A stretch of DNA of 64,000 nt from Pelagibacteraceae bacterium (GCA_002717485.1 PBDW01000007.1:1128-65127), one strand, 5' to 3'. Positions 28,021 through 45,878 are shown, counted from the first letter of the stretch. The notes: generated from the sequence alone by a model not told the origin. Program-made: numbers and translations.

Positions 28021-28725
28021 ATGAAAATTATATCTGAAATACATCCGCAACATAAAGGCAACATTGATATCGCTTCTGAAATGATAAGGGAGTCAGCTTT
28101 AAATGGAGCAGATATTGTTAAGTTTCAATGGTATGATGATGGTTATAAGGTTTTAGGTAAAGATTATTCTGATCTGGAGTTAAGCTATGATGATTGCAAA
28201 CATCTTGTTAAAATATCTGAACATTATGGTGTGGAACCCTTATTTAGCATATTTGATGAAGGCGCATTTGAGGGCAACTGTAAACTCGGCCTAAAGAAGA
28301 TTAAAATTGCAAGTAGGACTGTTAAACAATATCCAGATTTATGTAAAAAAATTATTGACTATGCTGACGAAGTTTATGTCTCTTTAGGTATGTGGGATAA
28401 AAAAGAATTTCCTTTCGGAACAGATTCAAAAATCCATTATTTTTTTTGCATATCAAAATATCCAACATACAATTATGATCTAAAAGATTTTCCCAAACAA
28501 TATGTCATTGGAAATATCGAAGGTTACAGCGACCACACTTTAGGCATAGATGCATGCCTTTTGGCAGCTTCAAGAGGAGCAATGTTTATTGAAAAACATT
28601 TTTCATTAGATAAAACAAATCAACAAGATAAACAGTTGGCGCATGTTTGCAGTATGAATCCCCAAGAGCTAAGCGTTCTTTCAACTTTCGGCAAAAGATT
28701 ATTTAAACTAAATAAAGATACTTAA
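28021..28725 (+). CDS. Short NeuB-family synthase without SAF domain
   Basis: ISEIHPQH.G, VKFQ, KIAS, CISKYP, GYSDHT.G, IEKHF; 234 aa. Confidence 0.85.
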   Translation: MKIISEIHPQHKGNIDIASEMIRESALNGADIVKFQWYDDGYKVLGKDYSDLELSYDDCKHLVKISEHYGVEPLFSIFDEGAFEGNCKLGLKKIKIASRTVKQYPDLCKKIIDYADEVYVSLGMWDKKEFPFGTDSKIHYFFCISKYPTYNYDLKDFPKQYVIGNIEGYSDHTLGIDACLLAASRGAMFIEKHFSLDKTNQQDKQLAHVCSMNPQELSVLSTFGKRLFKLNKDT

Positions 28726-28748: not shown

Positions 28749-30593
28749 ATGTATGAATTGAGAGACAAGCGCTCAAAAAATGGAGCAGTTTTAAGACTAG
28801 AAATTATGCATGCTTTAACAGAAATGGCGGAACTATTTCTTAATCATGCAAAATCCATACCTTTTTATAAAATTCTTACAAATCATTATGATAAGGATAA
28901 AATTGACCTGTATTTTAAGAAATTTATCTTCAATGAATTTATATATGTATCAAGCACTTTAGCCGCTCATAAATGGCATGTTTCTAATAGTAGTAAATTT
29001 AATAATAACATTTTAAACATCAGTCCTTCTAGATATGATTATTTATTAAAATATATATTTCCTGAAAAGGAGATCGAATGGATTATCAAGAGAAATATTA
29101 AAGATTATTTATATAGTTTTATAAACTGGATAAAAGATTTTATTAAAACTAAATTAGACTTAAATACTAATAGTAAATATTATTATTCTAATCAAATTCA
29201 TGATGATTCTGATATCCTATTTTCTATTCAATATAGTGAAGGATTGGATCTAGATAAAAGATCAGATATATTTTGGTTTCCAAATTCAGAAATACAGCCA
29301 AAAAATGTAATTGTTTATTTTGAAAGTGAAGGGCTTCTAAATTCAAAAGAAAATTATAATCAAGCTATTGCTCGCATAAAGAAATATGGTTTTAAATACG
29401 TATCCTTATTTTATAAAAAAAAATATAAAGATATATTTAAAGAAAAATACAGATCTAATAAATCTTTCAATAATAAAATATTTTCAGAACTTAAATCAAT
29501 AAAGCCAAAAAATATGTTTGAAAAATTTTTATATATACAATCAATACAGATGGTTAATAAAATAAATAAATGGTATAATTTCTTTAAGACTCATAATATC
29601 AAGTTGCATTATGAACCCACAGAAGCTGGCTTGGATCATATTATTAAAAATATAGCATTAGATTTATGTGATGGATTATCTATAGCTCGAGAGAGAACTT
29701 TTATGTTTGCGTCATATTTTGATTACTATGCACATTTTAGCAGCCACGTACATTTTACATGGGGCCGTATGACATCCGAGGGTTACAAACAGACAAATAA
29801 TATAAAAAAAGTTGTTCTCATGTCTGGTTATCCGTATGGCTACCATTCAAATGATCAAGTTAATAAAATAAAAGAAATAAAACAAAAATTAGAATCAAAT
29901 GGAGCGAAAAAAATTATTTTACTCTTGGACGACTCTCATGATTTTGGGACATCTCTGTATCGTTTCAGCAGAGTTTATACTCCAGTTATGGTTAATTTTT
30001 ATAATACCTTTCTTAATTTTGTAATCGCAAACCATAACATCGGCTTAATTATAAAGCCTAAAAAATATAAGGATTTAAAAAATCTTCAAAATGTTCAAAA
30101 ATTACTTAAAAAAGCTATTAATACGGGAAGATGCTATGTATCGCCTAATCCTTTGGGCCTAAAGCCTATAGATTTTTCAAGAATATCAGATTTTGTAGTG
30201 GCAACTGGACCTAACTTATCAGGCTCGCTTATGGAATCGGTGTTAACTGGAACAAAAGGTGTATATTATGATTATCCAAACAGGAAGCCTATAAAACCAG
30301 ATTTTTACAAAGAAAATGAGAATAAAATTATATTTATAGATTTTGATAAATTAGTATTAGAATTTAAAGAATTTATTAATTCTAAAGATAATTCATCATT
30401 TGGTGATTGGGACGCTATAATAAAAGATATTGATCCATTTATGGATGAAAAGGGCGGAGAAAGAATTGGAAGATATATTAATTATATGTTGCAGGGGTAT
30501 AAAATGGGATTAAACAGTAAGGAGAATCTGGAAAAAGCAAATAATTATTATGCAAAGATTTGGGGAAGGGACAAGGTTATTTTATATGCTTAA
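28749..30593 (+). CDS. Hypothetical surface-carbohydrate GT-B protein
   Basis: FTWG, SGYP, IIKPK, SGSLMES, DPF.D..G..R; genomic context. Confidence 0.5.
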   Translation: MYELRDKRSKNGAVLRLEIMHALTEMAELFLNHAKSIPFYKILTNHYDKDKIDLYFKKFIFNEFIYVSSTLAAHKWHVSNSSKFNNNILNISPSRYDYLLKYIFPEKEIEWIIKRNIKDYLYSFINWIKDFIKTKLDLNTNSKYYYSNQIHDDSDILFSIQYSEGLDLDKRSDIFWFPNSEIQPKNVIVYFESEGLLNSKENYNQAIARIKKYGFKYVSLFYKKKYKDIFKEKYRSNKSFNNKIFSELKSIKPKNMFEKFLYIQSIQMVNKINKWYNFFKTHNIKLHYEPTEAGLDHIIKNIALDLCDGLSIARERTFMFASYFDYYAHFSSHVHFTWGRMTSEGYKQTNNIKKVVLMSGYPYGYHSNDQVNKIKEIKQKLESNGAKKIILLLDDSHDFGTSLYRFSRVYTPVMVNFYNTFLNFVIANHNIGLIIKPKKYKDLKNLQNVQKLLKKAINTGRCYVSPNPLGLKPIDFSRISDFVVATGPNLSGSLMESVLTGTKGVYYDYPNRKPIKPDFYKENENKIIFIDFDKLVLEFKEFINSKDNSSFGDWDAIIKDIDPFMDEKGGERIGRYINYMLQGYKMGLNSKENLEKANNYYAKIWGRDKVILYA

Positions 30594-31808: not shown

Positions 31809-32831
31809 ATGAAGGAAGATTTTGACTGGGATTTCGCAGATAAATTAGATTATAAAATAAGGCCTATTATTGACTTCGCTAATTTAAAGGGGAATCTTTT
31901 TGCCCCTGTAAAAGAATACTTAGACTATTCAGGATGGGTAAATTTTTTGAAAAATAGAAGTTACGGAATACCAATAATGTTACCAGATAAATTGAGTATG
32001 TTTAATTATCCAGATAATAGCGTTGATTCAAAAAGTTTTGACTTAAATATTAAAGATATTTCTAAGGGTATTTTTAACACAAATCGAATTGACTATATTG
32101 GTGTTAAAATATTTGCAGAGAATGGATTAAGTTTTAAGTCATCAGGAGATCCAAAAAAAGAAATTATACCTTTTATAAATAATGTCCAAAAATTTAATAA
32201 TAATACAAAAAAGTTGATAGAAAAAATTAAATTATCAAACAAAACGATCGCTGCATTCCAATGCAGAAATGTTCCACACTTTGGACATCAGGCTATAGTT
32301 GAATCATTAATGTCGAAAGCTGATGTAGTTGTAATAAACCCAATTTTGGGCCCAAAAAAACCTGGAGATATTAAACCAGATTGCCTTAGGGCAACCTGGC
32401 AATACTTAATAAAAAATTATTATGGTGAAAAAGTAAAATTTTGGCCCGTGATTGCAAATATGTTCTATGCTGGCCCAAGAGAAGCTGCACATCACGCAAT
32501 AATTAGATCAAATCTGGGTTTTAACTATTTTAGTGTTGGTAGAGATCATGCTGGAGCTGAAAATATATATCAAGATGAAGAAGCTTCAATTTTTGTTATA
32601 AATCATGAAAGAAAGTTTAATATTAAAATAATTGCTAATCGGGGGGCGTATTTTTGTAGTTCTTGCAAAAAGGCTGTAATACGAGGGGCTTGTCCTCATA
32701 AAGAAGAAGGTTTAGAAGATATCTCAGGTTCAGATTTTAGAAAACACATTGAAAATAAAAAAATATATAAATTTGCAGATAAAAACTTGCAAGAATTTGT
32801 ATTTGAAATGAAAGGATCAATCTTTGAATAA
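31809..32831 (+). CDS. sat: Sulfate adenylyltransferase (ATP sulfurylase) with a divergent N-terminus
   Basis: AFQCRNVPHFGH, KKPGD, YAGPREA..HA..R.N.G, VGRDHAG, CxxC..CPH, ISGS. Confidence 0.88.
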   Translation: MKEDFDWDFADKLDYKIRPIIDFANLKGNLFAPVKEYLDYSGWVNFLKNRSYGIPIMLPDKLSMFNYPDNSVDSKSFDLNIKDISKGIFNTNRIDYIGVKIFAENGLSFKSSGDPKKEIIPFINNVQKFNNNTKKLIEKIKLSNKTIAAFQCRNVPHFGHQAIVESLMSKADVVVINPILGPKKPGDIKPDCLRATWQYLIKNYYGEKVKFWPVIANMFYAGPREAAHHAIIRSNLGFNYFSVGRDHAGAENIYQDEEASIFVINHERKFNIKIIANRGAYFCSSCKKAVIRGACPHKEEGLEDISGSDFRKHIENKKIYKFADKNLQEFVFEMKGSIFE

Positions 32832-34221
32832 CAATTTAATTTCACCAGTCATTGCTACAATTGGACCCGCAACCGAGGAAAGAAAAAATTTAGTAACTTT
32901 ACTTAAGCTATGCGATATCGTCAGGATAAACGGAGGTCACAATACTTTATCTTGGCACAAAAATGTGTCTAGTAATGTTAAAAAAATAGATTCAACTAAG
33001 GTGATATTAATTGATGTTCCCGGAATCAAACCTAGAACATTGAATAAAAAACCTATTATAATTAAAAAGGGAGAAAAAATTATTTTTTGCGGAAAGGAAA
33101 AAAAATTATCTAAATCAAATTATAAAATTGTTAAGTTATCAAATCCTCTGCCAAAAAATTATAAAAAAAATAAACATTTTTCAATTTCCGACGGTCAATT
33201 TTCCTTCTCTTTAATTAAATATGGTAAAAACTATGTTATAGGTAAGTCTAAAGTTAATTTTATATTATTACCCAACAAAGGATTAAATATTCCCGGATCT
33301 TTTTATGACGAAAATTATCAACTTAAAGTTTATAAAAATTTTCTTAAAAAGATAAATAATTTTAAATTTGATGCATTAGGAATAAGCTATGTGCAATCGG
33401 AAAAAATCATTAATAAAATAAGAAAAATATTTCCAAGTAAAATCATAGTTTCAAAGATTGAAAACTCCCTAGGATTGCATAATTCCTTAGAGATCATAAA
33501 ATCATCTGATGCAATTATGATAGATAGAGGAGACTTGGCTGCTGAAGCTGGTGAGCAAAACTTATTTAACGATGTAGTTCGTGTATCAAAACAAGTTAAG
33601 TACTTAGGTAGGCCATTAATAATAGCAACAGAGAATTTAGAATCTATGATAGAAAAAGTAGCTCCGACTAAAAGCGAAATTATGTCACTAGGATTAAATA
33701 CCTTATTAGGTGCAGATAAAATAATGTTGAGTGACGAAACTGCAACCTCTACAAATTGGAAAAATACAATTAATTGGGTTAACAAGTTTTATAATTTCAC
33801 AAATATTGATAGTTCTACTATGAAAAATTCATTTACCAGAACAGGTATAGATGAGAATCATAGCAACTTATGCATTTGGGACGCAATTGAAACCTTAAAT
33901 CATCTACCTTTTGTTATTGCTACTAAATCTGGGGCTGCAATATATGAATTAAAAAAAAGAATAAACGGCAACAGAATATTCGTTTTTACAGATAGTATTA
34001 GAACTTACAATTTGTGTCGATTTTGGAACGGAATAACTGCTAATATTGTGCAAAAAATGTTAAAAAAAGAAGGTGGCAAACAAATTTTAGGTATTGTTAA
34101 GCAACACTCTAATTTATTGTTTACCAGCAATTCAGCAATAGCAACTGTATTTGTTCTGAACCCAAGAAAAGGTGCAAGGGCAAATGCACTATACATTGTG
34201 ACAAAAAAAGATTTAAAATAA
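32824..34221 (+). CDS. Pyruvate kinase-like protein with altered active-site motifs
   Basis: ATIGPAT, RINGGH, D.PG.K.R, SKIEN, IMIDRGDL, ATENLESM, PTKSE, MLSDETA; TTG start overlapping sat. Confidence 0.85.
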   Translation: MNNNLISPVIATIGPATEERKNLVTLLKLCDIVRINGGHNTLSWHKNVSSNVKKIDSTKVILIDVPGIKPRTLNKKPIIIKKGEKIIFCGKEKKLSKSNYKIVKLSNPLPKNYKKNKHFSISDGQFSFSLIKYGKNYVIGKSKVNFILLPNKGLNIPGSFYDENYQLKVYKNFLKKINNFKFDALGISYVQSEKIINKIRKIFPSKIIVSKIENSLGLHNSLEIIKSSDAIMIDRGDLAAEAGEQNLFNDVVRVSKQVKYLGRPLIIATENLESMIEKVAPTKSEIMSLGLNTLLGADKIMLSDETATSTNWKNTINWVNKFYNFTNIDSSTMKNSFTRTGIDENHSNLCIWDAIETLNHLPFVIATKSGAAIYELKKRINGNRIFVFTDSIRTYNLCRFWNGITANIVQKMLKKEGGKQILGIVKQHSNLLFTSNSAIATVFVLNPRKGARANALYIVTKKDLK

Positions 34222-34240
34222 CAAATTAGAATTAAACAAT

Positions 34241-34774
34241 ATGGTAATCTGGCTTACAGGCTTATCTGGTTCAGGTAAAACGACAATAGCTAATAGTTTT
34301 TTAAAAAAAATTAAAAGCTATAAAATAAAATTTATATTGATTGATGGCGATATTATAAGGAATTTATTCTCTAAAGAATTAAGTTTTCAAAAAAAAGATA
34401 GGATAAAACAAATACAAAAAATCCAGCTCTTATCTAAATTTTTATCTGATCAAGGATTTAACGTTATTGTGGCTGCATTATATTCAAATAAAAACTTAAT
34501 GAAATGGAATAAAAAAAATTTAAAGGATTACGTCGAAGTTTATGTAAAGGCTCCATTAGAATTATTGATTAAAAGAGATACAAAAGGTTTGTATGCGGAT
34601 GTAATCAATAAAAAAATGAAACATATGGTTGGTATTGATATTAAATGGATTCCTCCAAAAAATCCACATTTAACTATAAGTCAAAAAATTGATTCAAATC
34701 CTGAAAGTTGTTCTTTAAAAATAGTAAATTTTTTAAAAACAAGAAAGAAATATAAGACTTTATTTAAAAAATAA
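34241..34774 (+). CDS. cysC: Adenylylsulfate kinase family protein
   Basis: WLTGLSGSGKT, DGD..R, EVYV, RDTKGLY, GID. Confidence 0.8.
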   Translation: MVIWLTGLSGSGKTTIANSFLKKIKSYKIKFILIDGDIIRNLFSKELSFQKKDRIKQIQKIQLLSKFLSDQGFNVIVAALYSNKNLMKWNKKNLKDYVEVYVKAPLELLIKRDTKGLYADVINKKMKHMVGIDIKWIPPKNPHLTISQKIDSNPESCSLKIVNFLKTRKKYKTLFKK

Positions 34775-34780
34775 AAATTA

Positions 34781-36031
34781 ATGAAAAAAATCCAAATTTT
34801 ATGCCTTGTGACAATTTCAAGAGCAGGATCTAAGCTGCTTCATAGCTTACTAGATTCCCATAAAAATATAATTTGTTTTCCAAGAACTTTTAATTTTTAT
34901 AATTTCTGGAATCAAAATCATCATTTAATTAATCAACCAAATCTTCTGATTGATCAATTTATTAAAGATAATAAAAGATTTTTTAATAGGGAAATTTGGG
35001 GCGAATATAATCCATTAGATAAAATGAACGATAAAAGGGAAAATTTTAATTTTTCAACTCAAAAGTTTAAAAAATTATTTTTAAATCAATTTAATAAAAA
35101 AAGAAAAATAGGTAAAAGAAAAAATTTGTTCTTAAGTTTACATCTGGCATATGCAAATCTTCTCAATAAAAATTTAAATGAAAAAAATATTATATTATAT
35201 CATTTGCACGCTATTTATGGACAGGAAGAAGCTTTAAAGCAAATTGTTAATGATTTTGATGCAAACGTTAAATTTATTATGATGACAAGAAATCCAATAG
35301 ATTCAATGAGATCAATATCTAATTGGATGGATAAAGTCTCTTTTAAAAATATATATGATATTTTTTATTATCAGAGCTGCTGTTTTGCTGATTCACAATT
35401 CTTAAAAAATTCATTTAAAAAAAATTACATTAAAGTTATAACATTTGAATCCTTGCATAAAAATTCTAAGGATGTAATGAAAGCTCTCTCTAAATGGATG
35501 GAAATCAAATGGAGCAATAATTTATTAAAAAGTACTTTTTGTGGAAAAATATGGACAGGTAATTCGCATAAAATTCTAAAAGGTTTAAATAAAAATAAAA
35601 TTAAAAAAATTAATCCTAATAATTTTTTTGAAAAAAATGATCAAATAATTTATCAATCAATATTTCCATATCGAATGAAATTATATGGTTATTACAATAA
35701 TTTATTACCACTTACATATTCAAGAATTATTTTATTTATAAGAGTATTGATACCAACAAATTCGGAAATTTCTATGCTCCAATCTTTTTTTAGTATTAAA
35801 TATTTATATTCAATATATCTGTACCATAAAAATCTTCATAAATTTAAGCATAATCATATGTTAAAAAATAGATATATGTTTAATAATATTTATTATATTT
35901 GTTTTATTTCTTATTGTGAAAATTTATTTAAGTATTTGTTTTTTTATTTAAAAAGAATAATTACATATTTTAGAGTTATAAAAAATAAAATACCTGACTA
36001 TAAAAAAGATATAGTTTTTACTATTTATTAA
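34781..36031 (+). CDS. Sulfotransferase family protein
   Basis: 5'-PSB-like SRAGSKLLHSLLDSH, 3'-PB-like RNPIDSMRS, ITFESL. Confidence 0.75.
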   Translation: MKKIQILCLVTISRAGSKLLHSLLDSHKNIICFPRTFNFYNFWNQNHHLINQPNLLIDQFIKDNKRFFNREIWGEYNPLDKMNDKRENFNFSTQKFKKLFLNQFNKKRKIGKRKNLFLSLHLAYANLLNKNLNEKNIILYHLHAIYGQEEALKQIVNDFDANVKFIMMTRNPIDSMRSISNWMDKVSFKNIYDIFYYQSCCFADSQFLKNSFKKNYIKVITFESLHKNSKDVMKALSKWMEIKWSNNLLKSTFCGKIWTGNSHKILKGLNKNKIKKINPNNFFEKNDQIIYQSIFPYRMKLYGYYNNLLPLTYSRIILFIRVLIPTNSEISMLQSFFSIKYLYSIYLYHKNLHKFKHNHMLKNRYMFNNIYYICFISYCENLFKYLFFYLKRIITYFRVIKNKIPDYKKDIVFTIY

Positions 36032-36036
36032 ATATT

Positions 36037-36783
36037 ATGAAAAAAAATATAATAGCTATGATCCCGGCCAGAATAGGAAGCAAGAGATTAAAGGTAAAAA
36101 ATTTGGCGATCTTAAACAACCAACCTTTGATATATTATGCTGTTGAAGCAGCAAAAAAATCGGCAGTATTTAATAAAATTGTTATAAATTCAGACCATAT
36201 AATATTTAAAAAAATAGCTGATAGGTTAAATGTTGATTTTTATCTAAGACCGAAGAATCTTGGATCATCTGCAACCAAGAGTGATGATGTTATAGCCAAT
36301 TTTATAAAAAATTATCCAAAAGCAGAAATAGTAGCTTGGGTCAATTCCATAGCCCCACTTCAACAACCAAATGAAATTAAATCAATACTTAGGCATTTTA
36401 TAAAAAATAAACTTGATTCTTTGATTACCGTTGAGGATAAAAATGTTCATTCAATATTTAATGATAAACCTATTAATTTTAACTTTAAAGAATCTTTTGC
36501 GCGTACTCAGGATTTGAATCCAGTAAAATTATTTGTTTACTCATTAATGGTGTGGAATTCAAATAAATTTATTGAAGAATATAACAAAACTGGCGGGGCT
36601 ATTTTTTGTGGTAAATTTAAAACTTTTTCAATTAGTAAACTTAATTCACTTATTATTAAAACTAAAGAAGATTTGTTATTGGCAGAAGCAATCATTAAAA
36701 ATAGAAATTTTTCAAAAAAAACAAATAATATTAAGTACGATAGAGTATTTAATCTGATTAATAAGCAAAATGATAAAAAATAA
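36037..36783 (+). CDS. NeuA-type acylneuraminate cytidylyltransferase
   Basis: MIPARIGSKRLKVKNL, INSD, RP..LG, RTQDL. Confidence 0.88.
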   Translation: MKKNIIAMIPARIGSKRLKVKNLAILNNQPLIYYAVEAAKKSAVFNKIVINSDHIIFKKIADRLNVDFYLRPKNLGSSATKSDDVIANFIKNYPKAEIVAWVNSIAPLQQPNEIKSILRHFIKNKLDSLITVEDKNVHSIFNDKPINFNFKESFARTQDLNPVKLFVYSLMVWNSNKFIEEYNKTGGAIFCGKFKTFSISKLNSLIIKTKEDLLLAEAIIKNRNFSKKTNNIKYDRVFNLINKQNDKK

Positions 36784-37774
36784 GAAGTTACTATCTAAAC
36801 GATATTCAAAAAATTTTATAACAAACAAAATTAACAACAATAAAATATCAAAAGATGTTAAAAATCTTAAAACAGTTTCATATGAATCGTGTCCTCAGTG
36901 CGGACACAATGAAGCCTCTACGGTATCGGAAGTAGATCGAACTGGTTTTTTTTGTGATACGGTAATCTGTAATAATTGCGAATTAGTTTTTAATGATTCT
37001 TATCTTTCAGATGAAAACAACTATTATAAAGAACTATGGGGAAAAGATCGCTGGGGCGTTGCTGAAAAGAGTTTTATTAATAGAACAAATCCTGATGCAT
37101 TTTCTTGGAAAAGATTTGCATATGTTTTAAGTAAAATAGAAGAAAAATTTTATAAAATAAAAAGTGTTATGGAAATTGGTTGCGGAGATGGATGTAACCT
37201 ATTCCCATATCACCTTGCTGGTAAAAAAGTAACAGGATTTGATTTTGATGAAACGTATTTAAGTCCAGGAAGAAAAAAGGGCATGAATCTTATTAATGGA
37301 AATTTTTCCGATTCAAATGATAAATATGATTTAGTTATGTTAATTCATACATTTGAGCATATGCAAAATCTAGATGAAGTTGTTAAAAATGTTTTTAATA
37401 CATTGAATGAAGAAGGATATGTTTACGTCGAAGTTCCTGGAATTAGAAATTGGAATATGACATCAAAGAATAGTTTAATATGTGATGGCTTTATGAGTAG
37501 CAATAACTTTTTATCTTATATTCAATACCAACATAATTTTCACTTTGACTTTGAGCATTTATTAACTTTTTGGCAAAGAAATGGATTCCAATTCGTTTAC
37601 GGTGACGAATGGGCTAGACTTATACTACAAAAAGGAACAAATAAATTTAAAAAATTTGAATCTAAAACTAATATATTTGATTATTTAAAAAAAGTTGAAA
37701 ATGATTTTACTTCTATTTCTAATATAAGTTTAAAATTAATGAAAAAAATATATAAATTCTTTTATAATAAATGA
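36770..37774 (+). CDS. Class I SAM methyltransferase with N-terminal Zn ribbon
   Basis: CPQC..CNNC, EIGCGDG, YDLV...HTFEH, YVEVP. Confidence 0.88.
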   Translation: MIKNKKLLSKRYSKNFITNKINNNKISKDVKNLKTVSYESCPQCGHNEASTVSEVDRTGFFCDTVICNNCELVFNDSYLSDENNYYKELWGKDRWGVAEKSFINRTNPDAFSWKRFAYVLSKIEEKFYKIKSVMEIGCGDGCNLFPYHLAGKKVTGFDFDETYLSPGRKKGMNLINGNFSDSNDKYDLVMLIHTFEHMQNLDEVVKNVFNTLNEEGYVYVEVPGIRNWNMTSKNSLICDGFMSSNNFLSYIQYQHNFHFDFEHLLTFWQRNGFQFVYGDEWARLILQKGTNKFKKFESKTNIFDYLKKVENDFTSISNISLKLMKKIYKFFYNK

Positions 37775-38817
37775 ATTTAATAACTTATAAAAACTTATTA
37801 AATTTTACTAAGAAAATTCTTAAAGAAACTGGTTTAGATTCTAAAAGTGTTAACTCTGTTTCCTTAGGTCTTTGTGAAGCATCTTTAAGAGGGGTTGATT
37901 CTCATGGAATTAAATTGCTACCGCACTATATAAAATCAGCACAACTTGGAAGAAAGAATCCCACCCCTTCATTTATTTTTACTAAAACATTTCCTTCAGT
38001 TGGCGTACTTGATGCTGATAATGCTTTTGGTCATGCTGCTGGCATAGAAGCTATAGATTGTTGTATCAAACTTGCAAAAAAAAATGGAATTGGAGCAGTA
38101 GCGGTAAGGAATTCCAGTCATCCAGGAGCATTAGCTAGCATGACAATTAAAGCAGCTAGAAAAGGATATATCTCTTTTGCATTTACACATGCAGATTCAT
38201 TAATGTTATCTCACGGAGGCAAGAGATCTTACTTTGGAACTAACCCGATATCGTTTGCAGCACCTAGAAAAGAGAAAGAACCTTATTGTTTGGATATGGC
38301 AACAAGTATGATTTCATGGAACAAACTATTAAATCTAAAAAATACTAAACAAAATTTAGAGAAAAATTTATCGGCTGATAAAGATGGAAATATGGTATCG
38401 GATCCTGAATTAGCAGTTTCTTTACTTCCAGCAGGGTCATATAAAGGGTATGGCCTAGCTTCTATGGTTGAAATATTGTCTGGAATATTAACAGGTATGA
38501 ATTTTGGTCGTTCAATCCCAAGTATGTATGCAGCTTCAATGAGAAAGCCTCGCCATCTTGGTCAATTTTATATTGTAATAAGACCCGATGCTTTTTTGAA
38601 TTCAAATAAATTTATTTCTAGAATGCAAAAACTTACAGATGAAATAAGAAAAGAGCCTGCAAAAAAAGGAAAAAAAGTTATGCTTCCAAACGATCCTGAA
38701 ATAATTGCCTCAAAAGAAAGATTAAAAAAAGGCATACCAGTTGACAAGGTGCTTAAGATTGAATTAGAAAAATTAGCAAGAATCTTTTCAGTAAAATTAA
38801 TCTTCAAAAAAAAATAA
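37771..38817 (+). CDS. Ldh2-family oxidoreductase (malate/L-lactate/L-sulfolactate/ureidoglycolate dehydrogenase family)
   Basis: LRGVDSHG, DA.NAFG, NSSH.G, GTNPI, LDMATS, GSYKGYGL. Confidence 0.9.
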   Translation: MNLITYKNLLNFTKKILKETGLDSKSVNSVSLGLCEASLRGVDSHGIKLLPHYIKSAQLGRKNPTPSFIFTKTFPSVGVLDADNAFGHAAGIEAIDCCIKLAKKNGIGAVAVRNSSHPGALASMTIKAARKGYISFAFTHADSLMLSHGGKRSYFGTNPISFAAPRKEKEPYCLDMATSMISWNKLLNLKNTKQNLEKNLSADKDGNMVSDPELAVSLLPAGSYKGYGLASMVEILSGILTGMNFGRSIPSMYAASMRKPRHLGQFYIVIRPDAFLNSNKFISRMQKLTDEIRKEPAKKGKKVMLPNDPEIIASKERLKKGIPVDKVLKIELEKLARIFSVKLIFKKK

Positions 38818-38824
38818 ATATATA

Positions 38825-40180
38825 ATGAGTAATCCTTTAGTTTCGATAATCATACGTACTAAAAATGAAGAGAGATGGATTACGTCTTGTTTAAAATCAA
38901 TTTTTAACCAGACTTTTCAAGATTTTGAGATCATAATTGTTGATAATGAAAGTTCCGATAAAACGATAGAAAAACTTAAAGAATTTAAAATAAAAGAAGT
39001 TTTAAAAATTAAAGATTATTTGCCAGGTAAGGCTTTAAATATTGGAATTAAAAAATCATCTGGAAAATATATAGTCTGCTTATCGGCTCACTGCATACCA
39101 GTTAATAATAAATGGTTGTCAACTTTAATTAAATCCATTGAAGAAGATAATAATTATGCTGGAGTTTACGGTAGGCAAGAACCAATGACATTTTCTACTC
39201 TCTACGACAAGAGAGATATGATGTTAATTTTTGGACTTGATAGAAAAATACAAATTAAAGATAGTTTTTTTCATAATGCAAATTCAATTATTAAAAAAAG
39301 TTTGTGGACCGAAGTTCCTTTTGACGAGAATTTAACAAATATTGAGGATCGTATTTGGGCAAAAATGATGCTAAAAAAAGGTTATAAGTTATTGTATGAA
39401 CCCGATGCAAGAGTTTATCATTATCACGGTATCCATCAGAATAATAATGATGAAAGATTAAAAAATGTAGTTGATATTATAGAAACTCATCATCCGGAAA
39501 ACATTAGCGGTAAAATTAATGCTGAAAATCTTAATATTATTGCAATATTACCTATTAAGGGACTTGCTAAAATGATTAATGGAGAGCCTTTATTAAAATA
39601 TACTATTGAAAATGCAAAAAATTCAAAATTTATTGATAAGGTTATTGTATCTACTGACAATGAAGATACAGCAAAGATAGCGCAGCAATTTGGCGCTCAT
39701 TGCCCATTTCTTAGACCTAAGAGTTTATCAGAACCCTTTGTTAGTTTAGAGATTGTTCAAAAATATTCACTGGAAAGAATAGAGGAAAATAACTTTATCC
39801 CAGATCTAATAGTACACTTAGAGGAAACATTTCCATTTAGACCAAAAAACCTCTTAGATAATATGATAACAAAGCTTCTCATTGAAGGATATGACTCAAT
39901 AGTTGCTGCAAAAAGAGAATCTGGTTGGTTATGGCAAAATGATAAAGAAGGAAATTTTAGAAGATTAGATAGCGGGGACGTGCCAAGAGAATTTAAAGAA
40001 AATTCACTGATTGGACTCCATGGCTTAGGTTGCGTTACTCATCCAGAATGCATTAGATCAGGACAAATACTAGGTAGTAAAATTGGTCTTTATAGAGTTG
40101 AAGATCCTATGGTAGATTTTGAAGTGAGAAGCGATGAATCTATAAAAATCGCCTCAAAATTTCTAAAAAATGAAATTTAA
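38825..40180 (+). CDS. GT2 glycosyltransferase fused to a degenerate NeuA-like domain
   Basis: SIIIRTKNEE, VDNES.D, LSAH, YGRQ, IED; C-term VSTD, FLRPKSL, TFPFR but no PARxGSK..KN motif. Confidence 0.82.
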   Translation: MSNPLVSIIIRTKNEERWITSCLKSIFNQTFQDFEIIIVDNESSDKTIEKLKEFKIKEVLKIKDYLPGKALNIGIKKSSGKYIVCLSAHCIPVNNKWLSTLIKSIEEDNNYAGVYGRQEPMTFSTLYDKRDMMLIFGLDRKIQIKDSFFHNANSIIKKSLWTEVPFDENLTNIEDRIWAKMMLKKGYKLLYEPDARVYHYHGIHQNNNDERLKNVVDIIETHHPENISGKINAENLNIIAILPIKGLAKMINGEPLLKYTIENAKNSKFIDKVIVSTDNEDTAKIAQQFGAHCPFLRPKSLSEPFVSLEIVQKYSLERIEENNFIPDLIVHLEETFPFRPKNLLDNMITKLLIEGYDSIVAAKRESGWLWQNDKEGNFRRLDSGDVPREFKENSLIGLHGLGCVTHPECIRSGQILGSKIGLYRVEDPMVDFEVRSDESIKIASKFLKNEI

Positions 40181-41159
40181 AAAACTTTCATCTGAAAATA
40201 TTGATGACTTTATAAAAGTTGCTAATAATTCAAAACATAAATGGCATTTTGCCGTAGATGTTGTTGAATTAGAGTTAAGGTTAAAGAATTATCAACATTT
40301 TAATTTAATCATTTATAAAGATGATTGCCCCGTAGCAGTTTTTTTGTCACGTAATATAAAATTAAAACGATTATTAGTTAAATTGAATGGTCTCTTATGT
40401 GACTATCAAGGTTTGCATATTGATAAAAATTTTACAAAATATTCTAATGAAATAATAAATTTTTTATATAATGATATTTTTGATAATTATTTTAAGAAAG
40501 TATTAAAAATTGACAGAATAGAATATATTCCGCCCCCATCTTTAATATTTTCTAATTCTCAAATTGATAATTTTAACATACATAAATACGGAAGGGATAT
40601 TAATAAAACTAATTTTATATTATCAGTAAAAAAAGACGATAATTATCTTAAATCGCGAAGTTATAATATTAGGTATGAAATCAAAAAAGGACTTAAGAAT
40701 TTAGAATCTTATGAAATTATATCTGATAAAAAAAAGATTGATATTGAAAAAATTTTAATACTTGATTCTTTAAAGTCTAAGAGATTAAATATAGAAAAAC
40801 AGACTAAAGATTTTTTTTACCATAGATTAAAAAGCAAATTTTATAATTTCTTTATAATTTCAATGGGAGATTCTTACGAAGTTATTTATATTACTGCAAA
40901 TCATGAAAATTTTAAAACCTTACACTACACTTGCCAAAGTGATACAGGAAGAAAGAAATTGTTAAGCAAGGCATTGATGTATAAAATTATTAATGATCTT
41001 GAAGAAAACCAACAATTTTTATTAGGTGTCAAAAATGACGTAAGTGGAGTTGATTTTTTCAAATCTAATTTTGCCAACCAGGAAGTTAAATTTTCATCCA
41101 TTATTTTTCCAATAAGTATTAAGGCTAGATTTATACAAAGTTTAAATAAAAATTATTAA
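40170..41159 (+). CDS. Hypothetical protein, weakly FemAB/tandem-GNAT-like
   Basis: RYEIKKG, SKALMY.II and GVDFFKSNF resemble FemAB C-terminal motifs. Confidence 0.5.
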   Translation: MKFKKLSSENIDDFIKVANNSKHKWHFAVDVVELELRLKNYQHFNLIIYKDDCPVAVFLSRNIKLKRLLVKLNGLLCDYQGLHIDKNFTKYSNEIINFLYNDIFDNYFKKVLKIDRIEYIPPPSLIFSNSQIDNFNIHKYGRDINKTNFILSVKKDDNYLKSRSYNIRYEIKKGLKNLESYEIISDKKKIDIEKILILDSLKSKRLNIEKQTKDFFYHRLKSKFYNFFIISMGDSYEVIYITANHENFKTLHYTCQSDTGRKKLLSKALMYKIINDLEENQQFLLGVKNDVSGVDFFKSNFANQEVKFSSIIFPISIKARFIQSLNKNY

Positions 41160-41176
41160 TCATTAAAATTATATTT

Positions 41177-42931
41177 ATGAATTATACCGCTATTATTTAC
41201 AGCAAAGAACATGCCAAATCTTTTATTTCTGATAAACCGCATGCAAGTAGAGTATATCCTTTAACACCTGCTGCAAAGTCAGAGTTAGTAGATAATACTA
41301 ATTTGCAATTGTTAGATCCTCTAGTATATTTTAATGATAATAGTCACAAGCATGTTCTTCAAAAACTTAAATCCTATGAGAGTTTATTGTTCCCAGCAAT
41401 TGAATCTTCTAATTTATTGTCCGATGCGGGCAAAGAAGCGCTAATAAATATTTTTCATCCCACAATTACAGCAACATTATATTTAAAATATTTAATAATT
41501 GATACAGGACCATGGATTTTTTACGATGGATCCAACTGGATAGAAATTAATGATCATAATGTAATGTTTGAGCATTTATTTCGATATGTTATTAAAGAAC
41601 GTATAGGGGTTTTTGAAGAAATATTAGAAGGTAAACAAAAATTTCCATATCTTATCAATTTTATAAATTCAATAATATTTAAATTTTTTAAAAATAAAGA
41701 AGTCATTTGGACCACAGGTCTTAATTATGGGTTAAAGAACCTTGTAAAGGATTTGTACTTATATAATCCTAATGCAGTTATATTTTATTATGTTTTTGCA
41801 GATAAGATATCTTGGCTAAGATCTATTAAATCACTTATTTTTTCTATTTTTACCAGAAATAAAAATGAAGCAATCCCAATAGTCCCTGTCAGGTTAGAAA
41901 ATCCCAGTATTCCATCAGAAATTAGTGAGATTCTTAGTAACATTTTTAAGAATGATTTTAAGAATATCAAAAAAGAATTAATAAGATTTATTTCATGGTC
42001 AGTTGAATACGCTGAATCATTAATTGATTATACTTCAAAAAATTATAAAAATTACCCTCCAAAATTTTTATTAGCTCATCAGTTAAGATTATTTGATGCA
42101 GTTGCAATAGGTTATGTTGCCAAAAAAATGAATATACCTGTTCATCTAATTTCCCATGGTTCTCACCCAGTTCCTGATAATGAAATATCTGAGTATGAAT
42201 TAAATTATATAGCAAGAGGTTTGCTTTTTAGCCCTTTTGCAAGCGAGACAATAGTGCAGTCACCTTTAGCTGAAAAATCTGCTATTGATTTTATGCCTAG
42301 TTTAAAAAGGAAAAAATTCCACCCTATTATGTGGGGATATAATATAAATAAAAAAGATACAATAAATAAAGAAAATAAATTTATAATATTGCAAGCAGGA
42401 ACATCAAAAGCTCTTAGTGCAAGGCCATGGATTTATGAAAATTCCAATGAATTTATCTTAGGTTTAACATTACTTATAAATGCTGTAAAAAAAATTAATA
42501 ATGCTTATTTAATAATTAGAATAAGAGAATCTGCAGAATATAATCTTAAAGATTTAGAAATAATTCTTCCTCAGAGTGATAAATATGAATTGAGAATAGG
42601 AGGAAATTTTTACGACGATCTTAATGAAGCGGACTTGTTAGTAAGCTATTCTTCGACTACCATTGAAGAAGCATTATATTCAAAAAAACCAGTAGCATTA
42701 TTTGGAGGTACTGATAGATATAGGCACTTATCAGGTATGTCTTCACTGCCTTCTTTTGATAATCGTAGTGCCGTATACCATCTTTCAAAAGATAATTTAT
42801 TTGAAATGATACAAGAAATTTTGAAGGTTCATTCAAACAAGCCTTTAACGAACTTGGAAGTAAGTAAGTATATTTGGTCTCAAGAAGTTCCAGGAAGGCA
42901 GGAATTTATTAAACACCTTTTTAATGAATAA
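41177..42931 (+). CDS. Hypothetical GT-B fold protein, candidate ulosonate transferase
   Basis: ISHG, ADLLVSYSSTTIEEAL..KKPV; immediately precedes the kdsA-like gene. Confidence 0.55.
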   Translation: MNYTAIIYSKEHAKSFISDKPHASRVYPLTPAAKSELVDNTNLQLLDPLVYFNDNSHKHVLQKLKSYESLLFPAIESSNLLSDAGKEALINIFHPTITATLYLKYLIIDTGPWIFYDGSNWIEINDHNVMFEHLFRYVIKERIGVFEEILEGKQKFPYLINFINSIIFKFFKNKEVIWTTGLNYGLKNLVKDLYLYNPNAVIFYYVFADKISWLRSIKSLIFSIFTRNKNEAIPIVPVRLENPSIPSEISEILSNIFKNDFKNIKKELIRFISWSVEYAESLIDYTSKNYKNYPPKFLLAHQLRLFDAVAIGYVAKKMNIPVHLISHGSHPVPDNEISEYELNYIARGLLFSPFASETIVQSPLAEKSAIDFMPSLKRKKFHPIMWGYNINKKDTINKENKFIILQAGTSKALSARPWIYENSNEFILGLTLLINAVKKINNAYLIIRIRESAEYNLKDLEIILPQSDKYELRIGGNFYDDLNEADLLVSYSSTTIEEALYSKKPVALFGGTDRYRHLSGMSSLPSFDNRSAVYHLSKDNLFEMIQEILKVHSNKPLTNLEVSKYIWSQEVPGRQEFIKHLFNE

Positions 42932-42997: not shown

Positions 42998-43870
42998 ATG
43001 TCTTACAAGAGAAAAGAAAAAATAATTACTGTTGGATATGGTAATGTAAATAAAGTGACTGTTGGAGGCTTAAATCCTTTAATTTTTATAGGCGGCCCTT
43101 GCGCCATTGAAAGCCAAGAACATTCTATTAAGATGGCTGAGTTAATTGGAAAGATCTGTGAGAAAGTTGGCATTTCATGGATATACAAATCATGTTACGA
43201 TAAAGATTGCAGATCATCACCAGAAAGTTTTCATGGACTTGGAATAGAGGGAGGACTAAAAATCTTGGAAAAGGTGCGTAATGAAATTGGCGTACCAGTC
43301 GTTTCAGATTTTTCTGATCCTGCGTGGGCTGAAAAGACAGGAGAAATTTGCGATATGGTTCAAATTCCTGCTTATCTCTGTAGACAAACTTCTATTTTAC
43401 GATCAGCAGCTAAAACTAATCGTCCAATACATTTAAAAAAAGGACAGTTTATGAGTCCTTGGAATATGAAAAATTCTGTACAGAAGATAGAATCTAATGG
43501 AAATTCACAAATTATTTTATCTGATAGGGGCACTTTTTTTGGATACAATATGCTTGTAAATGATATGAGGTGTTTTCCGATAATGGCTGAAACAGGATAT
43601 CCAGTATGCTTTGATGCAACTCACTCAATTCAACTTCCAACATCAATGGGTAATATATCAGGCGGGCAAAGAGAATTCATACCATATCTTGTTAGATCTG
43701 CAGTTGCATGTGGAGTTAACGCTTTATTTATGGAAGTGCATGATGACCCGGATAATGCTTTATCAGACTCAAATACAGTATTGCATATTGATATGCTTCA
43801 GAATATTTTATACCAAGCTAAAGAAATGCATGAAATGAGATTAGAATTGTCAAAGAAATATGAGGAATAG
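42998..43870 (+). CDS. kdsA: KdsA paralog (KDO8P synthase family, metal-dependent type) with a variant substrate loop
   Basis: GGPCAIES, QIPAYLCRQT, KKGQF, RG..FGYN.LV.D, FDATHS.Q.P, FMEVH..P..A.SD; KANRS is replaced by KDCRS. Confidence 0.82.
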   Translation: MSYKRKEKIITVGYGNVNKVTVGGLNPLIFIGGPCAIESQEHSIKMAELIGKICEKVGISWIYKSCYDKDCRSSPESFHGLGIEGGLKILEKVRNEIGVPVVSDFSDPAWAEKTGEICDMVQIPAYLCRQTSILRSAAKTNRPIHLKKGQFMSPWNMKNSVQKIESNGNSQIILSDRGTFFGYNMLVNDMRCFPIMAETGYPVCFDATHSIQLPTSMGNISGGQREFIPYLVRSAVACGVNALFMEVHDDPDNALSDSNTVLHIDMLQNILYQAKEMHEMRLELSKKYEE

Positions 43871-43876
43871 TTATTA

Positions 43877-44293
43877 ATGAATGCAAATGAAATTAGTGTA
43901 AAAGACGTTATGCTTACTACTGAAAATTTCCCTGTAATTAATAAAAATACTTTATTTAAGGAATCACTTGAACATATGAATAAAACAAATTTGGGAATTG
44001 CTTGCGTTGTTGATGAAAGAAATAAATTATTAGGTATTATAACGGACGGTGACGTTCGTCGTAATCTTTTAAAAGTTCAAAAACCCATATCAGCTTTTTT
44101 TGTAGACGATGTGGTTTCTCACTGTGTTAAAAATCCAATTACAATACTACCTGATGATAAACTTAATTATGCAGTAAAAATTATGGGGGAAAAGAAGGTT
44201 TGGGACTTACCTGTAGTTAATAATGATGGAATTTTGGTTGGTCTGCTTCATCTTCATCAAGCTATTAAGAAATTACTAGAAAAAGATATATAA
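43877..44293 (+). CDS. Stand-alone CBS-pair protein resembling the KdsD C-terminus
   Basis: VKDVM, LG...VVD, GIITDGDVRR, LPVV, GLLHLH. Confidence 0.85.
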   Translation: MNANEISVKDVMLTTENFPVINKNTLFKESLEHMNKTNLGIACVVDERNKLLGIITDGDVRRNLLKVQKPISAFFVDDVVSHCVKNPITILPDDKLNYAVKIMGEKKVWDLPVVNNDGILVGLLHLHQAIKKLLEKDI

Positions 44294-44297
44294 AATT

Positions 44298-45859: not shown

Positions 45860-45878
45860 ACAAAAGGATTATAATAAT

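What the first reader, a model, noticed from the sequence alone, without database searches (positions are those of the whole stretch)
31809..38817. Sulfur-activation module with a remodelled pyruvate kinase between sat and cysC, followed by a sulfotransferase and a ComC/Ldh2-like dehydrogenase
Seen: sat overlaps a pyruvate-kinase-fold gene, followed by cysC-like, sulfotransferase, NeuA-type, methyltransferase and Ldh2-family genes, all inside a glycan operon. The PK has several changes in normally well-conserved motifs: ARGD to DRGD, ATQM to ATEN, PTRAE to PTKSE, LSGE to LSDE, NFSH to NGGH. Established: these motifs line the PEP/metal/nucleotide site; Sat plus CysC make PAPS; the Ldh2 family includes L-sulfolactate dehydrogenase ComC. 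Inference, two models. (a) The PK recycles ADP made by APS kinase, relieving its dead-end inhibition and driving PAPS supply for glycan sulfation. (b) The PK is neofunctionalised and uses APS/PAPS with pyruvate enolate to make a sulfo-pyruvate species, which the ComC-like enzyme reduces to a sulfolactate-type glycan substituent; no ComA is visible here. I do not recognise either as a described glycan pathway.
Basis: partly seen in the sequence, partly recalled or inferred. Interest (0 to 1): 0.85.

Follow-up and report, generated by a model that had tools for sequence, protein, structure and literature searches.

The report
Sulfate-activation genes with dedicated pyruvate kinase
A marine bacterium's sugar-coat gene island carries the enzymes that activate sulfate together with their own unusual pyruvate kinase, a pairing that recurs, sometimes fused into one protein, across many microbial lineages and seems not to have been described.

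Summary
All five PK motif changes are present.

The sat-PK link is conserved:
- SAT lies within 500 bp on the same strand in 57 of 80 genome loci, drawn from more than ten phyla.
- All 14 of the best SAT hits in a 401-genome class sample sit next to a PK.
- PK-linked Sats and PKs each form their own clades.
- Natural fusions exist: of 120 clusters, 89 are PK-Sat, 28 PK-Sat-APS kinase, 1 Sat-PK and 2 unclear.

The variant PK keeps every catalytic and nucleotide-binding residue. Three of the five "remodelled" motifs sit at the known A-A' subunit lock rather than the substrate pocket. In eight genomes it is the only PK-family match found.

Best reading (0.55): a genuine PEP+ADP→ATP kinase built into a mobile PAPS-supply cassette for glycan sulfation. 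Model (b) is not supported: Ldh_2 is absent from all 80 loci, no ComA was found, and the Ldh_2 protein is not ComC-like. I found no description of the pairing in print.

The parts
31809..32831 (+). ATP sulfurylase (Sat), short Zn-type, of the PK-linked clade
   Evidence: PF01747 1.7e-45. Best solved relative is 8a8d ATP sulfurylase, 2.1e-35, with FQxRNxPHxGH, GPREA and VGRDHAG kept. It falls in a 36-row marine clade of which 35 rows are PK-adjacent.
32824..34221 (+). Variant pyruvate kinase (A+B+C domains; Lys at the position I recall as rabbit 117, the K+-independent type; rewired A-A' interface), translationally overlapping sat
   Evidence: PF00224 2.9e-41. TIGR01064 194.5 bits, below the 306.4 cut-off. 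AF2 pLDDT 89.6, pTM 0.90. Foldseek top hits are all PKs, TM 0.80 to E. coli PykF. Catalytic residues conserved. Lies on the non-canonical side of a branch with SH-aLRT 100.
34241..34774 (+). APS kinase (CysC)
   Evidence: PF01583 3.4e-34. NF004041 147.6 bits, above the 127 cut-off. P-loop GLSGSGKTT. A cysC homologue is present in 48 of 80 related loci.
34781..36031 (+). Sulfotransferase, N-terminal Sulfotransfer_3 domain plus about 170 aa of hydrophobic C-terminal extension
   Evidence: PF13469 4.1e-08, 34.2 bits against a 27 cut-off. Sulfotransferase-like genes were found in 24 of 81 loci, six of them directly beside the PK.
36037..38817 (+). Context only, not part of the conserved module: CTP_transf_3 cytidylyltransferase (36037-36783), methyltransferase (36770-37774), Ldh_2 dehydrogenase (37771-38817)
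   Evidence: Pfam. No Ldh_2 or methyltransferase homologue in any of 80 PK loci. The cytidylyltransferase has only weak matches (22-25% identity), in 2 loci.

Best explanation
The four genes sat-PK-cysC-sulfotransferase form a self-contained, horizontally mobile sulfation cassette within the glycan island. Sat makes APS from ATP and sulfate. CysC makes PAPS. The sulfotransferase puts the sulfate on a glycan or one of its precursors.

The PK is a true phosphoenolpyruvate:NDP phosphotransferase. It is a specialised isozyme, co-translated with Sat, with Lys at the K+ position and a rewired subunit interface. It turns PEP + ADP into ATP + pyruvate beside the two ATP-consuming steps. That pays part of the ATP bill from PEP and keeps ADP low, which prevents the dead-end enzyme-ADP-APS complex of APS kinase.

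Shown: gene content, conserved linkage, co-cladogenesis, natural fusions, and conservation of catalytic residues.

Inferred: the PK's substrates and direction, any physical association, the interface explanation for three motif changes, and the glycan as the sulfate acceptor.
For: (1) Linkage from the PK side. In 80 genome loci, SAT lies within 500 bp on the same strand in 57 (55 in the order SAT then PK). In 5 more only cysC lies between them. The hosts include Pelagibacteraceae, SAR116, Paracoccaceae, Binatia, Myxococcota, Parcubacteria, Elusimicrobiota, Actinomycetota, Bacteroidota and Verrucomicrobiota.

(2) Linkage from the SAT side. In a 401-genome class sample, all 14 SAT hits of 98 bits or more have the PK hit next door. 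None of the weaker, canonical-type hits that were listed does. Of the 14 closest metagenomic SATs, 11 have a PK within 237 bp downstream, 1 has no room on the contig, 1 has a PK 3.5 kb away, and 1 has none.

(3) Trees. 24 canonical PKs form one clade (SH-aLRT 100) and all linked PKs lie on the other side. PK-less Sats form one 46-row clade (support 98), apart from the PK-linked Sats.

(4) Fusions. P0172 is PUA_2 + ATP-sulfurylase + PK barrel, with 4 members on 5 contigs from two sources. All 120 of its best relatives carry both domains. By motif order, 89 are PK-SAT, 28 PK-SAT-APS kinase and 1 SAT-PK. The fusion therefore arose in both orders.

(5) Chemistry kept. R34, N36, S38, H39, D64, K69, R71, K152, K211, E213, D237, T269, S303 and E305 are at least 90% conserved across the marine clade, the broad clade and canonical PKs. 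The three-domain PK fold is retained.

(6) The SAT-linked PK is the only PF00224 hit in G001 and G005, in G086, G244 and G371, and in G408, G409 and G410. This fits ordinary PK activity.

(7) In vitro, PAPS synthesis by PAPSS1 nearly fails without PK/PEP ATP regeneration, because of the dead-end E-ADP-APS complex (PMC9885120, passages read).

(8) The cassette is not for assimilation. No PAPS-reductase family hit was found in the window's genome (85% complete).

(9) Sat is canonical. Its sulfate and ATP motifs are kept, and there are almost no clade-specific differences from PK-less Sats.
Against: A soluble PK cannot change the cell-wide ATP/ADP ratio for one pathway unless it is physically coupled or very active. 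No such coupling is shown for the unfused proteins.

The link is to Sat, which makes no ADP, more than to CysC. cysC was not found in 16 of 62 SAT+PK loci. Pelagibacter HTCC9565 has only a partial 48-bit APS_kinase hit, and a Parcubacteria genome has none.

The same PK clade also occurs with no sat or cysC nearby:
- sulfotransferase-PK on Komagataeibacter plasmids;
- TauE-PK-sulfotransferase, and sulfotransferase-PK;
- LysR-PK-TauE-AEC in enterics, Pseudomonas and Caballeronia.
ATP regeneration explains these poorly.

11 of the 14 sampled genomes with the pair, and the window's own genome, also have a canonical PK, so the extra copy needs a reason.

The marine subclade sits on a long branch (2.08 changes per site) and carries further changes next to active-site residues (ATEN, LS[DE]ETA). 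The window protein scores below the NCBIfam PK equivalog cut-off.
Confidence: 0.55

Rival explanations
1. The PK variant is a sulfonucleotide-directed enzyme. It uses PEP to re-phosphorylate or otherwise process a PAP/APS-type adenine nucleotide, for example in a PAP-to-PAPS salvage loop with Sat. Alternatively it couples PEP energy mechanistically to APS formation, as GTP hydrolysis does in CysDN.
For: The PK's partners are all enzymes that bind APS, PAPS or PAP: Sat, CysC, and several unrelated sulfotransferase subfamilies. This points to a role on the donor side rather than the acceptor side. Sulfotransferase-PK pairs without sat or cysC are hard to explain by ATP supply. Translational overlap and fusions fit a coupled machine. 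PAP is a micromolar inhibitor of sulfotransferases (passage read).
Against: No universal clade-specific substitution creates an obvious 3'-phosphate or sulfate pocket. The only universal differences from canonical PKs are P66, D234, E270 and K283. F->G at position 37 holds in only 66-86% of sequences. PK-linked Sats show no active-site change relative to PK-less Sats. There is no biochemical precedent for PK acting on a 5'-monophosphate. In several genomes the variant is the only PK found.
Confidence: 0.15
2. The linkage has no direct biochemical meaning. The variant is an ordinary or alternative housekeeping PK that is co-regulated or co-transferred with sulfur genes.
For: All catalytic residues are kept. 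It is the sole PK in eight genomes. The broad-clade members score about 300 bits on PF00224.
Against: Fusion arose in both domain orders, in at least 118 protein clusters. Adjacency persists across more than ten phyla, and the Sat and PK clades match. The gene sits inside hypervariable glycan islands of genomes that already have a canonical PK.
Confidence: 0.12
3. The PK is neofunctionalised to make a sulfo-pyruvate species from APS/PAPS and pyruvate enolate, which the Ldh_2 enzyme reduces to a sulfolactate-type glycan substituent.
For: An Ldh_2 gene lies four genes downstream of the PK. From my own recall, not from any call: canonical PK can slowly transfer the sulfuryl group of sulfoenolpyruvate to ADP. 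The one paper my search on that compound found treats it only as a synthetic PEP analogue (listing only).
Against: No Ldh_2 homologue in any of 80 PK loci. Ldh_2 scores 210.6 bits against a 500 cut-off for sulfolactate dehydrogenase and is closer to 1z2i and AllD than to ComC 2x06. No ComA in the genome (85% complete). The sulfuryl group of APS occupies the beta position, not the gamma position, of the nucleotide site (inference). PK pairs with many unrelated sulfotransferases.
Confidence: 0.03

Closest known systems
Bifunctional PAPS synthases (Sat-APS kinase fusions, e.g. PDB 2gks and human PAPSS1)
   Same: Sat and APS kinase work as one unit to make PAPS for sulfation. The window has both genes, and related proteins fuse them.
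   Different: Here a PK barrel is a third, conserved partner, either operonic or fused. I found no described PAPS synthase that carries one.
CysDN, the GTP-coupled ATP sulfurylase
   Same: An ATP sulfurylase is paired, with overlapping genes, with a second nucleotide-handling protein that supplies driving force.
   Different: CysD and CysN are unrelated in fold to Sat and PK. Energy coupling by the PK is not shown. PEP would replace GTP.
Canonical pyruvate kinases (PykF/PykA; rabbit and yeast PK structures)
   Same: Same three-domain fold (TM 0.80 to E. coli PykF). The same Arg/Asn/Asp/Lys/Glu/Asp/Thr/Ser/Glu catalytic set is kept. Lys lies after the Gly-x of the DxxGxK motif, as in K+-independent PKs. 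That rule was seen only in the abstract listing of PMC5501398; the position numbering is recalled.
   Different: A separate clade. A->D, Q->E and R->K at the A-A' lock. P at the position I recall as 114. Below the NCBIfam equivalog cut-offs. Some members lack the C domain.
In-vitro PAPS-generating cascades (ATP sulfurylase + APS kinase + pyrophosphatase + PK/PEP)
   Same: The same enzyme set. There the PK regenerates ATP and prevents the dead-end E-ADP-APS complex.
   Different: That is a laboratory design. The window would be a natural, genetically hard-wired counterpart. No pyrophosphatase gene lies in the cassette.
L-sulfolactate dehydrogenase ComC / coenzyme M pathway
   Same: Same Ldh_2 family.
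   Different: Fails the equivalog cut-off. No ComA. No conserved linkage to the cassette.

Membership tests
Pyruvate kinase (PF00224 / TIGR01064) | A-domain TIM barrel with inserted B-domain lid | tested here: met
   PF00224 covers residues 9-309, 142 bits against a 30 cut-off. The AF2 model has pLDDT 89.6. Foldseek top hits are all PKs.
Pyruvate kinase (PF00224 / TIGR01064) | Catalytic and ligand-binding residues. By recalled rabbit numbering: R72, N74, S76, D112, R119, K206, K269, E271, D295, T327, S361, E363 | tested here: met
   The counterparts R34, N36, D64, R71, K152, K211, E213, D237, T269, S303 and E305 are present and at least 90% conserved in both variant clades and in canonical PKs. 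S38 is at least 90% conserved across the family but is Gly in the window protein (RINGGH).
Pyruvate kinase (PF00224 / TIGR01064) | C-terminal alpha/beta (effector) domain | tested here: inconclusive
   Pfam PK_C was not detected. However, the full-length model aligns over about 485-500 columns with PKs at TM 0.75-0.80. Relatives in Paracoccaceae and Komagataeibacter lack this domain.
Pyruvate kinase (PF00224 / TIGR01064) | Equivalog-level score and canonical motifs (NFSH, ARGD, ATQM, PTRAE, LSGE) | tested here: not met
   TIGR01064 scores 194.5 against 306.4, and NF004491 195.5 against 432. All five motifs are altered.
Pyruvate kinase (PF00224 / TIGR01064) | PEP + ADP -> pyruvate + ATP activity | not testable with these tools
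   Needs an enzyme assay.
ATP sulfurylase (Sat, PF01747) | Catalytic domain with QxRNxxHxxH and GRDHAG motifs | tested here: met
   FQCRNVPHFGH and VGRDHAG are present. PF01747 1.7e-45.
ATP sulfurylase (Sat, PF01747) | N-terminal PUA-like domain and equivalog-level score | tested here: not met
   There is no PUA_2 hit in the window protein. TIGR00339 scores 142.3 against 322.95. Broad-clade relatives keep a recognisable N-domain consensus.
APS kinase (CysC, PF01583) | P-loop kinase scoring over a curated cut-off | tested here: met
   NF004041 147.6 against 127. TIGR00455 is just under its cut-off, 134.1 against 138.7. GLSGSGKTT P-loop.
PAPS-dependent sulfotransferase (PF13469) | Sulfotransferase domain over the gathering score | tested here: met
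   34.2 bits against 27, residues 12-245. PAPS-binding residues were not examined.
L-sulfolactate dehydrogenase ComC (NF040650) | Equivalog score, and partner enzymes ComA/ComB | tested here: not met
   210.6 bits against a 500 cut-off. ComA (PF02679) was not found in the genome, which is 85% complete. ComB was not searched for.
Sat-PK sulfation cassette (defined here) | Variant PK directly beside a Sat of the PK-linked clade, same strand | tested here: met
   8-nt overlap. The window's PK and SAT both fall in the marine PK-linked clades.

The most novel reading that the evidence does not exclude
Sat and the variant PK form one physically coupled machine, literally one polypeptide in the PK-Sat(-APS kinase) fusion proteins that sources name from Patescibacteria, DPANN-type and Asgard-type archaea and others. 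In it, PEP-driven phosphotransfer is mechanistically coupled to sulfate activation or to PAP/PAPS recycling. This would be a PEP-powered counterpart of the GTP-powered CysDN, making sulfation cheaper than the textbook two-ATP route. A side possibility concerns the cysC-less loci: the TagF-like transferase beside Sat-PK may use APS directly as sulfuryl donor.
Probability: 0.15. Interest if true: 0.85.

Novelty: new variant of a known kind. Interest (0 to 1): 0.68.

Why it matters
Sulfated surface glycans shape phage recognition, grazing and carbon export in abundant marine bacteria, and PAPS supply limits every sulfation pathway.

A dedicated PK travels with ATP sulfurylase across bacteria and archaea and is repeatedly fused to it. 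That implies a general, undescribed solution to the energetics or product inhibition of sulfate activation.

It would correct annotation of hundreds of proteins now named only 'pyruvate kinase' or only 'sulfate adenylyltransferase'. It bears on metabolic reconstructions that read these genes as glycolysis. It also offers ready-made natural PAPS-generating modules for enzymatic sulfation.

Tried and rejected
Complex prediction of window Sat with window PK: the verdict was 'no answer' (score 0.00), and the controls were not run. I take it as no evidence either way.

Search for longer fused forms using the window PK as query found nothing. The fusions surfaced only through the exhaustive representative search. 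The earlier blank was a sensitivity limit.

TagF-like transferase as a functional partner. It lies beside Sat-PK in 9 loci from about 5 lineages, none with cysC, whereas 46 of the 53 other SAT+PK loci have cysC. But in L010 it is followed by an NTP-transferase and a cytidylyltransferase-PEP mutase fusion. It may therefore simply transfer a phosphonate. I kept it only as a low-probability side idea.

Sat-like enzyme as an adenylyltransferase for a phospho-acid made by the PK. I rejected this because the sulfate and ATP motifs are unchanged, and PK-linked and PK-less Sats differ at only two non-catalytic positions.

F->G in the NFSH motif as a pocket for a 3'-phosphate. It is not universal (66-86%, and L031 keeps NFSH).

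Enteric LysR-PK-TauE-AEC operon in E. coli: no match in 5,426 genomes.

Plasmid search with the Stappia PK mostly returned canonical pyk genes. Only two Komagataeibacter plasmids were of the variant type.

Literature. All ten searches and passages from four papers gave no description of a sat-PK operon or fusion. The library lacks most subscription journals, and supplements were closed, so this is 'not found', not 'not in print'.

Two unpublished genomes (G045, G245) are among the 401 in the tallies. No specific claim rests on them, and none of the 14 Sat-PK pairs lies in them.

Full report
**What is in the window**

Coordinates 31809-38817 hold seven co-directional ORFs. Pfam and NCBIfam identify them as follows.
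- ATP sulfurylase: PF01747, 1.7e-45.
- Pyruvate kinase: PF00224, 2.9e-41.
- APS kinase: NF004041, 147.6 bits, over its 127-bit cut-off.
- A Sulfotransfer_3 protein.
- A CTP_transf_3 cytidylyltransferase.
- A class-I methyltransferase.
- An Ldh_2 dehydrogenase.

The PK starts at a TTG 8 nt inside the end of sat.

The genes sit in a 64-kb, single-strand glycan island. It also carries NeuB, DegT aminotransferases, glycosyltransferases, a Wzy_C protein, a KdsA-like synthase and several cytidylyltransferases. GC content is about 27%. The window is contig 7 of a 1.40-Mb assembly that is 85% complete.

**Is the PK-sat link real?**

From the PK side, a scan of one genome per species found 172 relatives, of which the best 80 loci were kept.
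- SAT lies within 500 bp on the same strand in 57 of the 80, and 55 of those have the order SAT then PK.
- Five more loci have only cysC between the two genes.
- 18 loci have no SAT.
- cysC is present in 48 loci.
- Hosts span Pelagibacteraceae, SAR116, Paracoccaceae, Rhodospirillales, Binatia, Myxococcota, Parcubacteria, Elusimicrobiota, Actinomycetota, Bacteroidota and Verrucomicrobiota.

From the SAT side, I used an even sample of 401 genomes of the window's class.
- All 14 SAT hits of at least 98 bits have the PK hit directly adjacent on the same contig and strand.
- Weaker, canonical-type SAT hits that were listed do not.

In metagenomes, of the 14 closest SAT relatives:
- 11 have a PK within 237 bp downstream;
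- one contig ends before a PK could appear;
- one has a PK 3.5 kb away;
- one has none.

De novo clustering of neighbouring genes shows what else recurs.
- A TauE/SafE-family permease appears in 25 of 81 loci. I read it as a possible sulfate importer, which is inference.
- Sulfotransferase-like genes appear in at least 24 of 81 loci, six of them directly beside the PK.
- Sulfatase-family and Na/H-exchanger-family membrane proteins appear in six loci each.

**Phylogeny**

In a 101-row PK tree, 24 canonical PKs taken from the same or sampled genomes form one clade with SH-aLRT 100. Every locus-derived PK lies on the other side of that branch.
- A long-branched marine clade of 32 rows (support 100) holds the window protein, which is sister to a SAR116 sequence.
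- A broad clade holds 41 rows (support 99).
- A few deep lineages remain: Parcubacteria, Binatia/Myxococcota and one gammaproteobacterium.
- SAT-less members, from enterics, Pseudomonas, Caballeronia and actinomycetes, nest inside the broad clade. They therefore look like secondary losses of sat.

In a 129-row SAT tree:
- PK-less Sats form one clade of 46 rows (40 without a PK, 6 unknown; support 98).
- PK-linked Sats fall in clades of 36 (35 linked), 27, 8 and 2 rows, plus singles.
- Three of the 'no PK' singles (L136, L138, L145) in fact have a PK within 700 bp in another arrangement.

The two genes have therefore been inherited together for a long time.

**Fusions**

The exhaustive representative search turned up P0172, 725 aa. 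Pfam reads it as PUA_2 + ATP-sulfurylase + PK barrel. Its 90% cluster has four members on five contigs from two data sources.

Searching with its junction region returned 120 listed clusters, all 120 of which carry PF14306, PF01747 and PF00224.
- Pfam coordinates for eight of them and motif order for all give 89 PK-SAT, 28 PK-SAT-APS kinase, 1 SAT-PK and 2 unclear.
- Sources name hosts in Patescibacteria lineages, Woesearchaeota, Nanoarchaeota, Promethearchaeota, Planctomycetota and Ardenticatenaceae.

Fusion in both orders, and with APS kinase, is strong evidence that the PK works with the PAPS-forming enzymes.

The fused PK domain is a second sulfation-linked PK type, with motifs NMSH, IDRGD, ATN, PTRAE and LAAETA. 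The window's genome has a stand-alone copy of that type on contig 19, 39% identical, followed by a weak sulfotransferase-like gene.

**What the PK most likely does**

All residues that I recall as binding PEP, Mg2+, the monovalent-cation site and the nucleotide phosphates in solved PKs are at least 90% conserved. This holds in the marine clade, the broad clade and canonical PKs. One exception in the window protein itself is Ser38, which is Gly.

The AF2 model is confident (pLDDT 89.6, pTM 0.90). It superposes on full-length PKs at TM 0.75-0.80.

Only four differences from canonical PKs are universal:
- Pro at the DxPG position;
- Asp before RGD;
- Glu after AT;
- Lys in PTK.

A structural paper (PMC3467265, section 8, passages read) states the following. 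The conserved Arg of PTRAE reaches across the A-A interface to the backbone carbonyls of the Arg and Gly of the RGDLG helix, next to Thr328 and Gln329. Three of the four universal changes therefore sit at this inter-subunit 'lock'.

I infer a co-varying rewiring in which Lys pairs with the new Asp and Glu. It could fix the active state, or keep the transferred PK from mixing with the host's own tetramer. This does not indicate a new substrate.

The Lys that follows the Gly-x of the DxPGxK motif matches the K+-independent PK class. That rule was seen only in an abstract listing, and the position numbering is recalled.

The SAT-linked PK is the only PF00224 hit in eight genomes, which fits ordinary PK chemistry (MAG incompleteness is a caveat):
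- Pelagibacter HTCC9565 and an Ilumatobacteraceae MAG;
- G086, G244 and G371;
- a Myxococcota genome, a Parcubacteria genome and an Elusimicrobiota genome.

Sat itself is canonical.

The biochemical logic has a laboratory precedent. PAPS synthesis by PAPSS1 almost fails without PK/PEP ATP regeneration, because APS kinase forms a dead-end E-ADP-APS complex (PMC9885120, passages read).

The window's genome has no PAPS-reductase hit. A preprint reports assimilatory sulfate reduction absent from all 135 complete Pelagibacter genomes (passages read). The cassette therefore serves sulfation, not assimilation.

I commit to this reading at 0.55: a PEP-fuelled, ADP-clearing PK built into a mobile PAPS-supply cassette.

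**What does not fit**

The PK is tied to Sat more than to CysC.
- cysC is missing from 16 of 62 SAT+PK loci.
- It is at best doubtful in HTCC9565 and not found in a Parcubacteria genome.

Members of the same PK clade also sit with only a sulfotransferase or only transporters.
- Komagataeibacter plasmids carry LuxR-type regulator, sulfotransferase, then PK, with overlapping genes.
- L071 and L076 carry sulfotransferase-PK arrangements.
- Enterics, Pseudomonas and Caballeronia carry PK with a TauE and an AEC transporter.

The adjacent sulfotransferases belong to mutually unrecognisable subfamilies. This points to a donor-side role but not specifically to ATP.

Most carriers also have a canonical PK.

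These points keep a rival alive at 0.15: the enzyme handles a PAP/APS-type nucleotide, or couples PEP energy directly to sulfate activation.

It is not supported.
- No Ldh_2 or methyltransferase homologue occurs in any of the 80 loci.
- The Ldh_2 protein is far below the sulfolactate-dehydrogenase cut-off.
- It is closer to MDH-like and ureidoglycolate-dehydrogenase structures than to ComC.
- ComA is not found in the genome.

The Ldh_2, methyltransferase and cytidylyltransferase genes are more likely part of the island's nonulosonic-acid tailoring. That is inference and was not tested.

**Novelty**

Ten full-text searches and four papers gave no description of a sat-PK operon or fusion (listed under Tried and rejected). 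Public names call the fusions either 'sulfate adenylyltransferase' or 'pyruvate kinase'.

The Sat/CysC/sulfotransferase part is textbook. The dedicated, co-evolving and often fused PK partner is, as far as I could find, undescribed. I therefore rate it a new variant of a known kind, with interest 0.68.

Noticed in passing
L082:1498-2460 and L082:2476-3579 (own genome, contig 19, G000:C19:36036-36947): A second, barrel-only PK-like gene (motifs NMSH, IDRGD, ATN, PTRGE). It is 39% identical to the PK domain of the PK-Sat fusions. A weak Sulfotransfer_3-like gene follows it directly, and a GT2-like gene precedes it. No sat is nearby.
   Followed up: partly
proteins P0172, P0269-P0387: In the PK-Sat(-APS kinase) fusion family the Sat domain has FHTRN instead of FQTRN. 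It has GRDHTG instead of GRDHAG in 118 of 120 clusters. By my recall these are two sulfate-contacting positions. The unfused Parcubacteria locus L036 shares both changes.
   Followed up: partly
L045, L055, L062, L065, L067, L079 (Enterobacter, Serratia, Kosakonia, Pseudomonas, Caballeronia): A conserved LysR / variant PK / TauE-family / AEC-family transporter block without sat, with an HD_4 gene on the opposite strand in four of the six loci. It nests inside the SAT-linked PK clade. No match in 5,426 E. coli genomes.
   Followed up: partly
L117 (Komagataeibacter xylinus plasmid pA, NZ_CP041349.1:8567-10409), also NZ_CP023041.1: A plasmid-borne trio: autoinducer-binding regulator, sulfotransferase, and barrel-only variant PK, with overlapping genes and no sat or cysC nearby.
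   Followed up: no
L001, L003, L006, L009, L010, L014, L032, L033, L036: A TagF-like glycerophosphotransferase (PF04464) lies directly beside Sat-PK in 9 loci from about 5 lineages. None of these has cysC in the locus, against 46 of the 53 other SAT+PK loci. In L010 it is followed by an NTP-transferase and a cytidylyltransferase-PEP mutase fusion.
   Followed up: partly
window 7380-8633 and 38825-40180: Two ORFs that fuse a GT2 glycosyltransferase domain to a CTP_transf_3 cytidylyltransferase domain (417 and 451 aa).
   Followed up: no
window 28749-30593, 40170-41159, 41177-42931, 47403-48920, 3733-4962, 6318-7379: Six sizeable ORFs (329-614 aa) inside the glycan island with no Pfam family at the thresholds used.
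   Followed up: no
window 28021-28725 vs 20107-21168: A short NeuB-family ORF (234 aa, no SAF domain) in addition to a full-length NeuB (353 aa, NeuB + SAF). Also in the island: a KdsA-like DAHP_synth_1 gene, a CBS-pair gene, an HpcH/HpaI aldolase and two SDRs at 42998-46625.
   Followed up: no
L004:5086-5457 and L008:7652-8002: In two Pelagibacteraceae loci, a 116-123 aa CTP_transf_like (PF01467) ORF takes the place of sat just upstream of the PK. It may be a remnant or a minimal nucleotidyltransferase.
   Followed up: no
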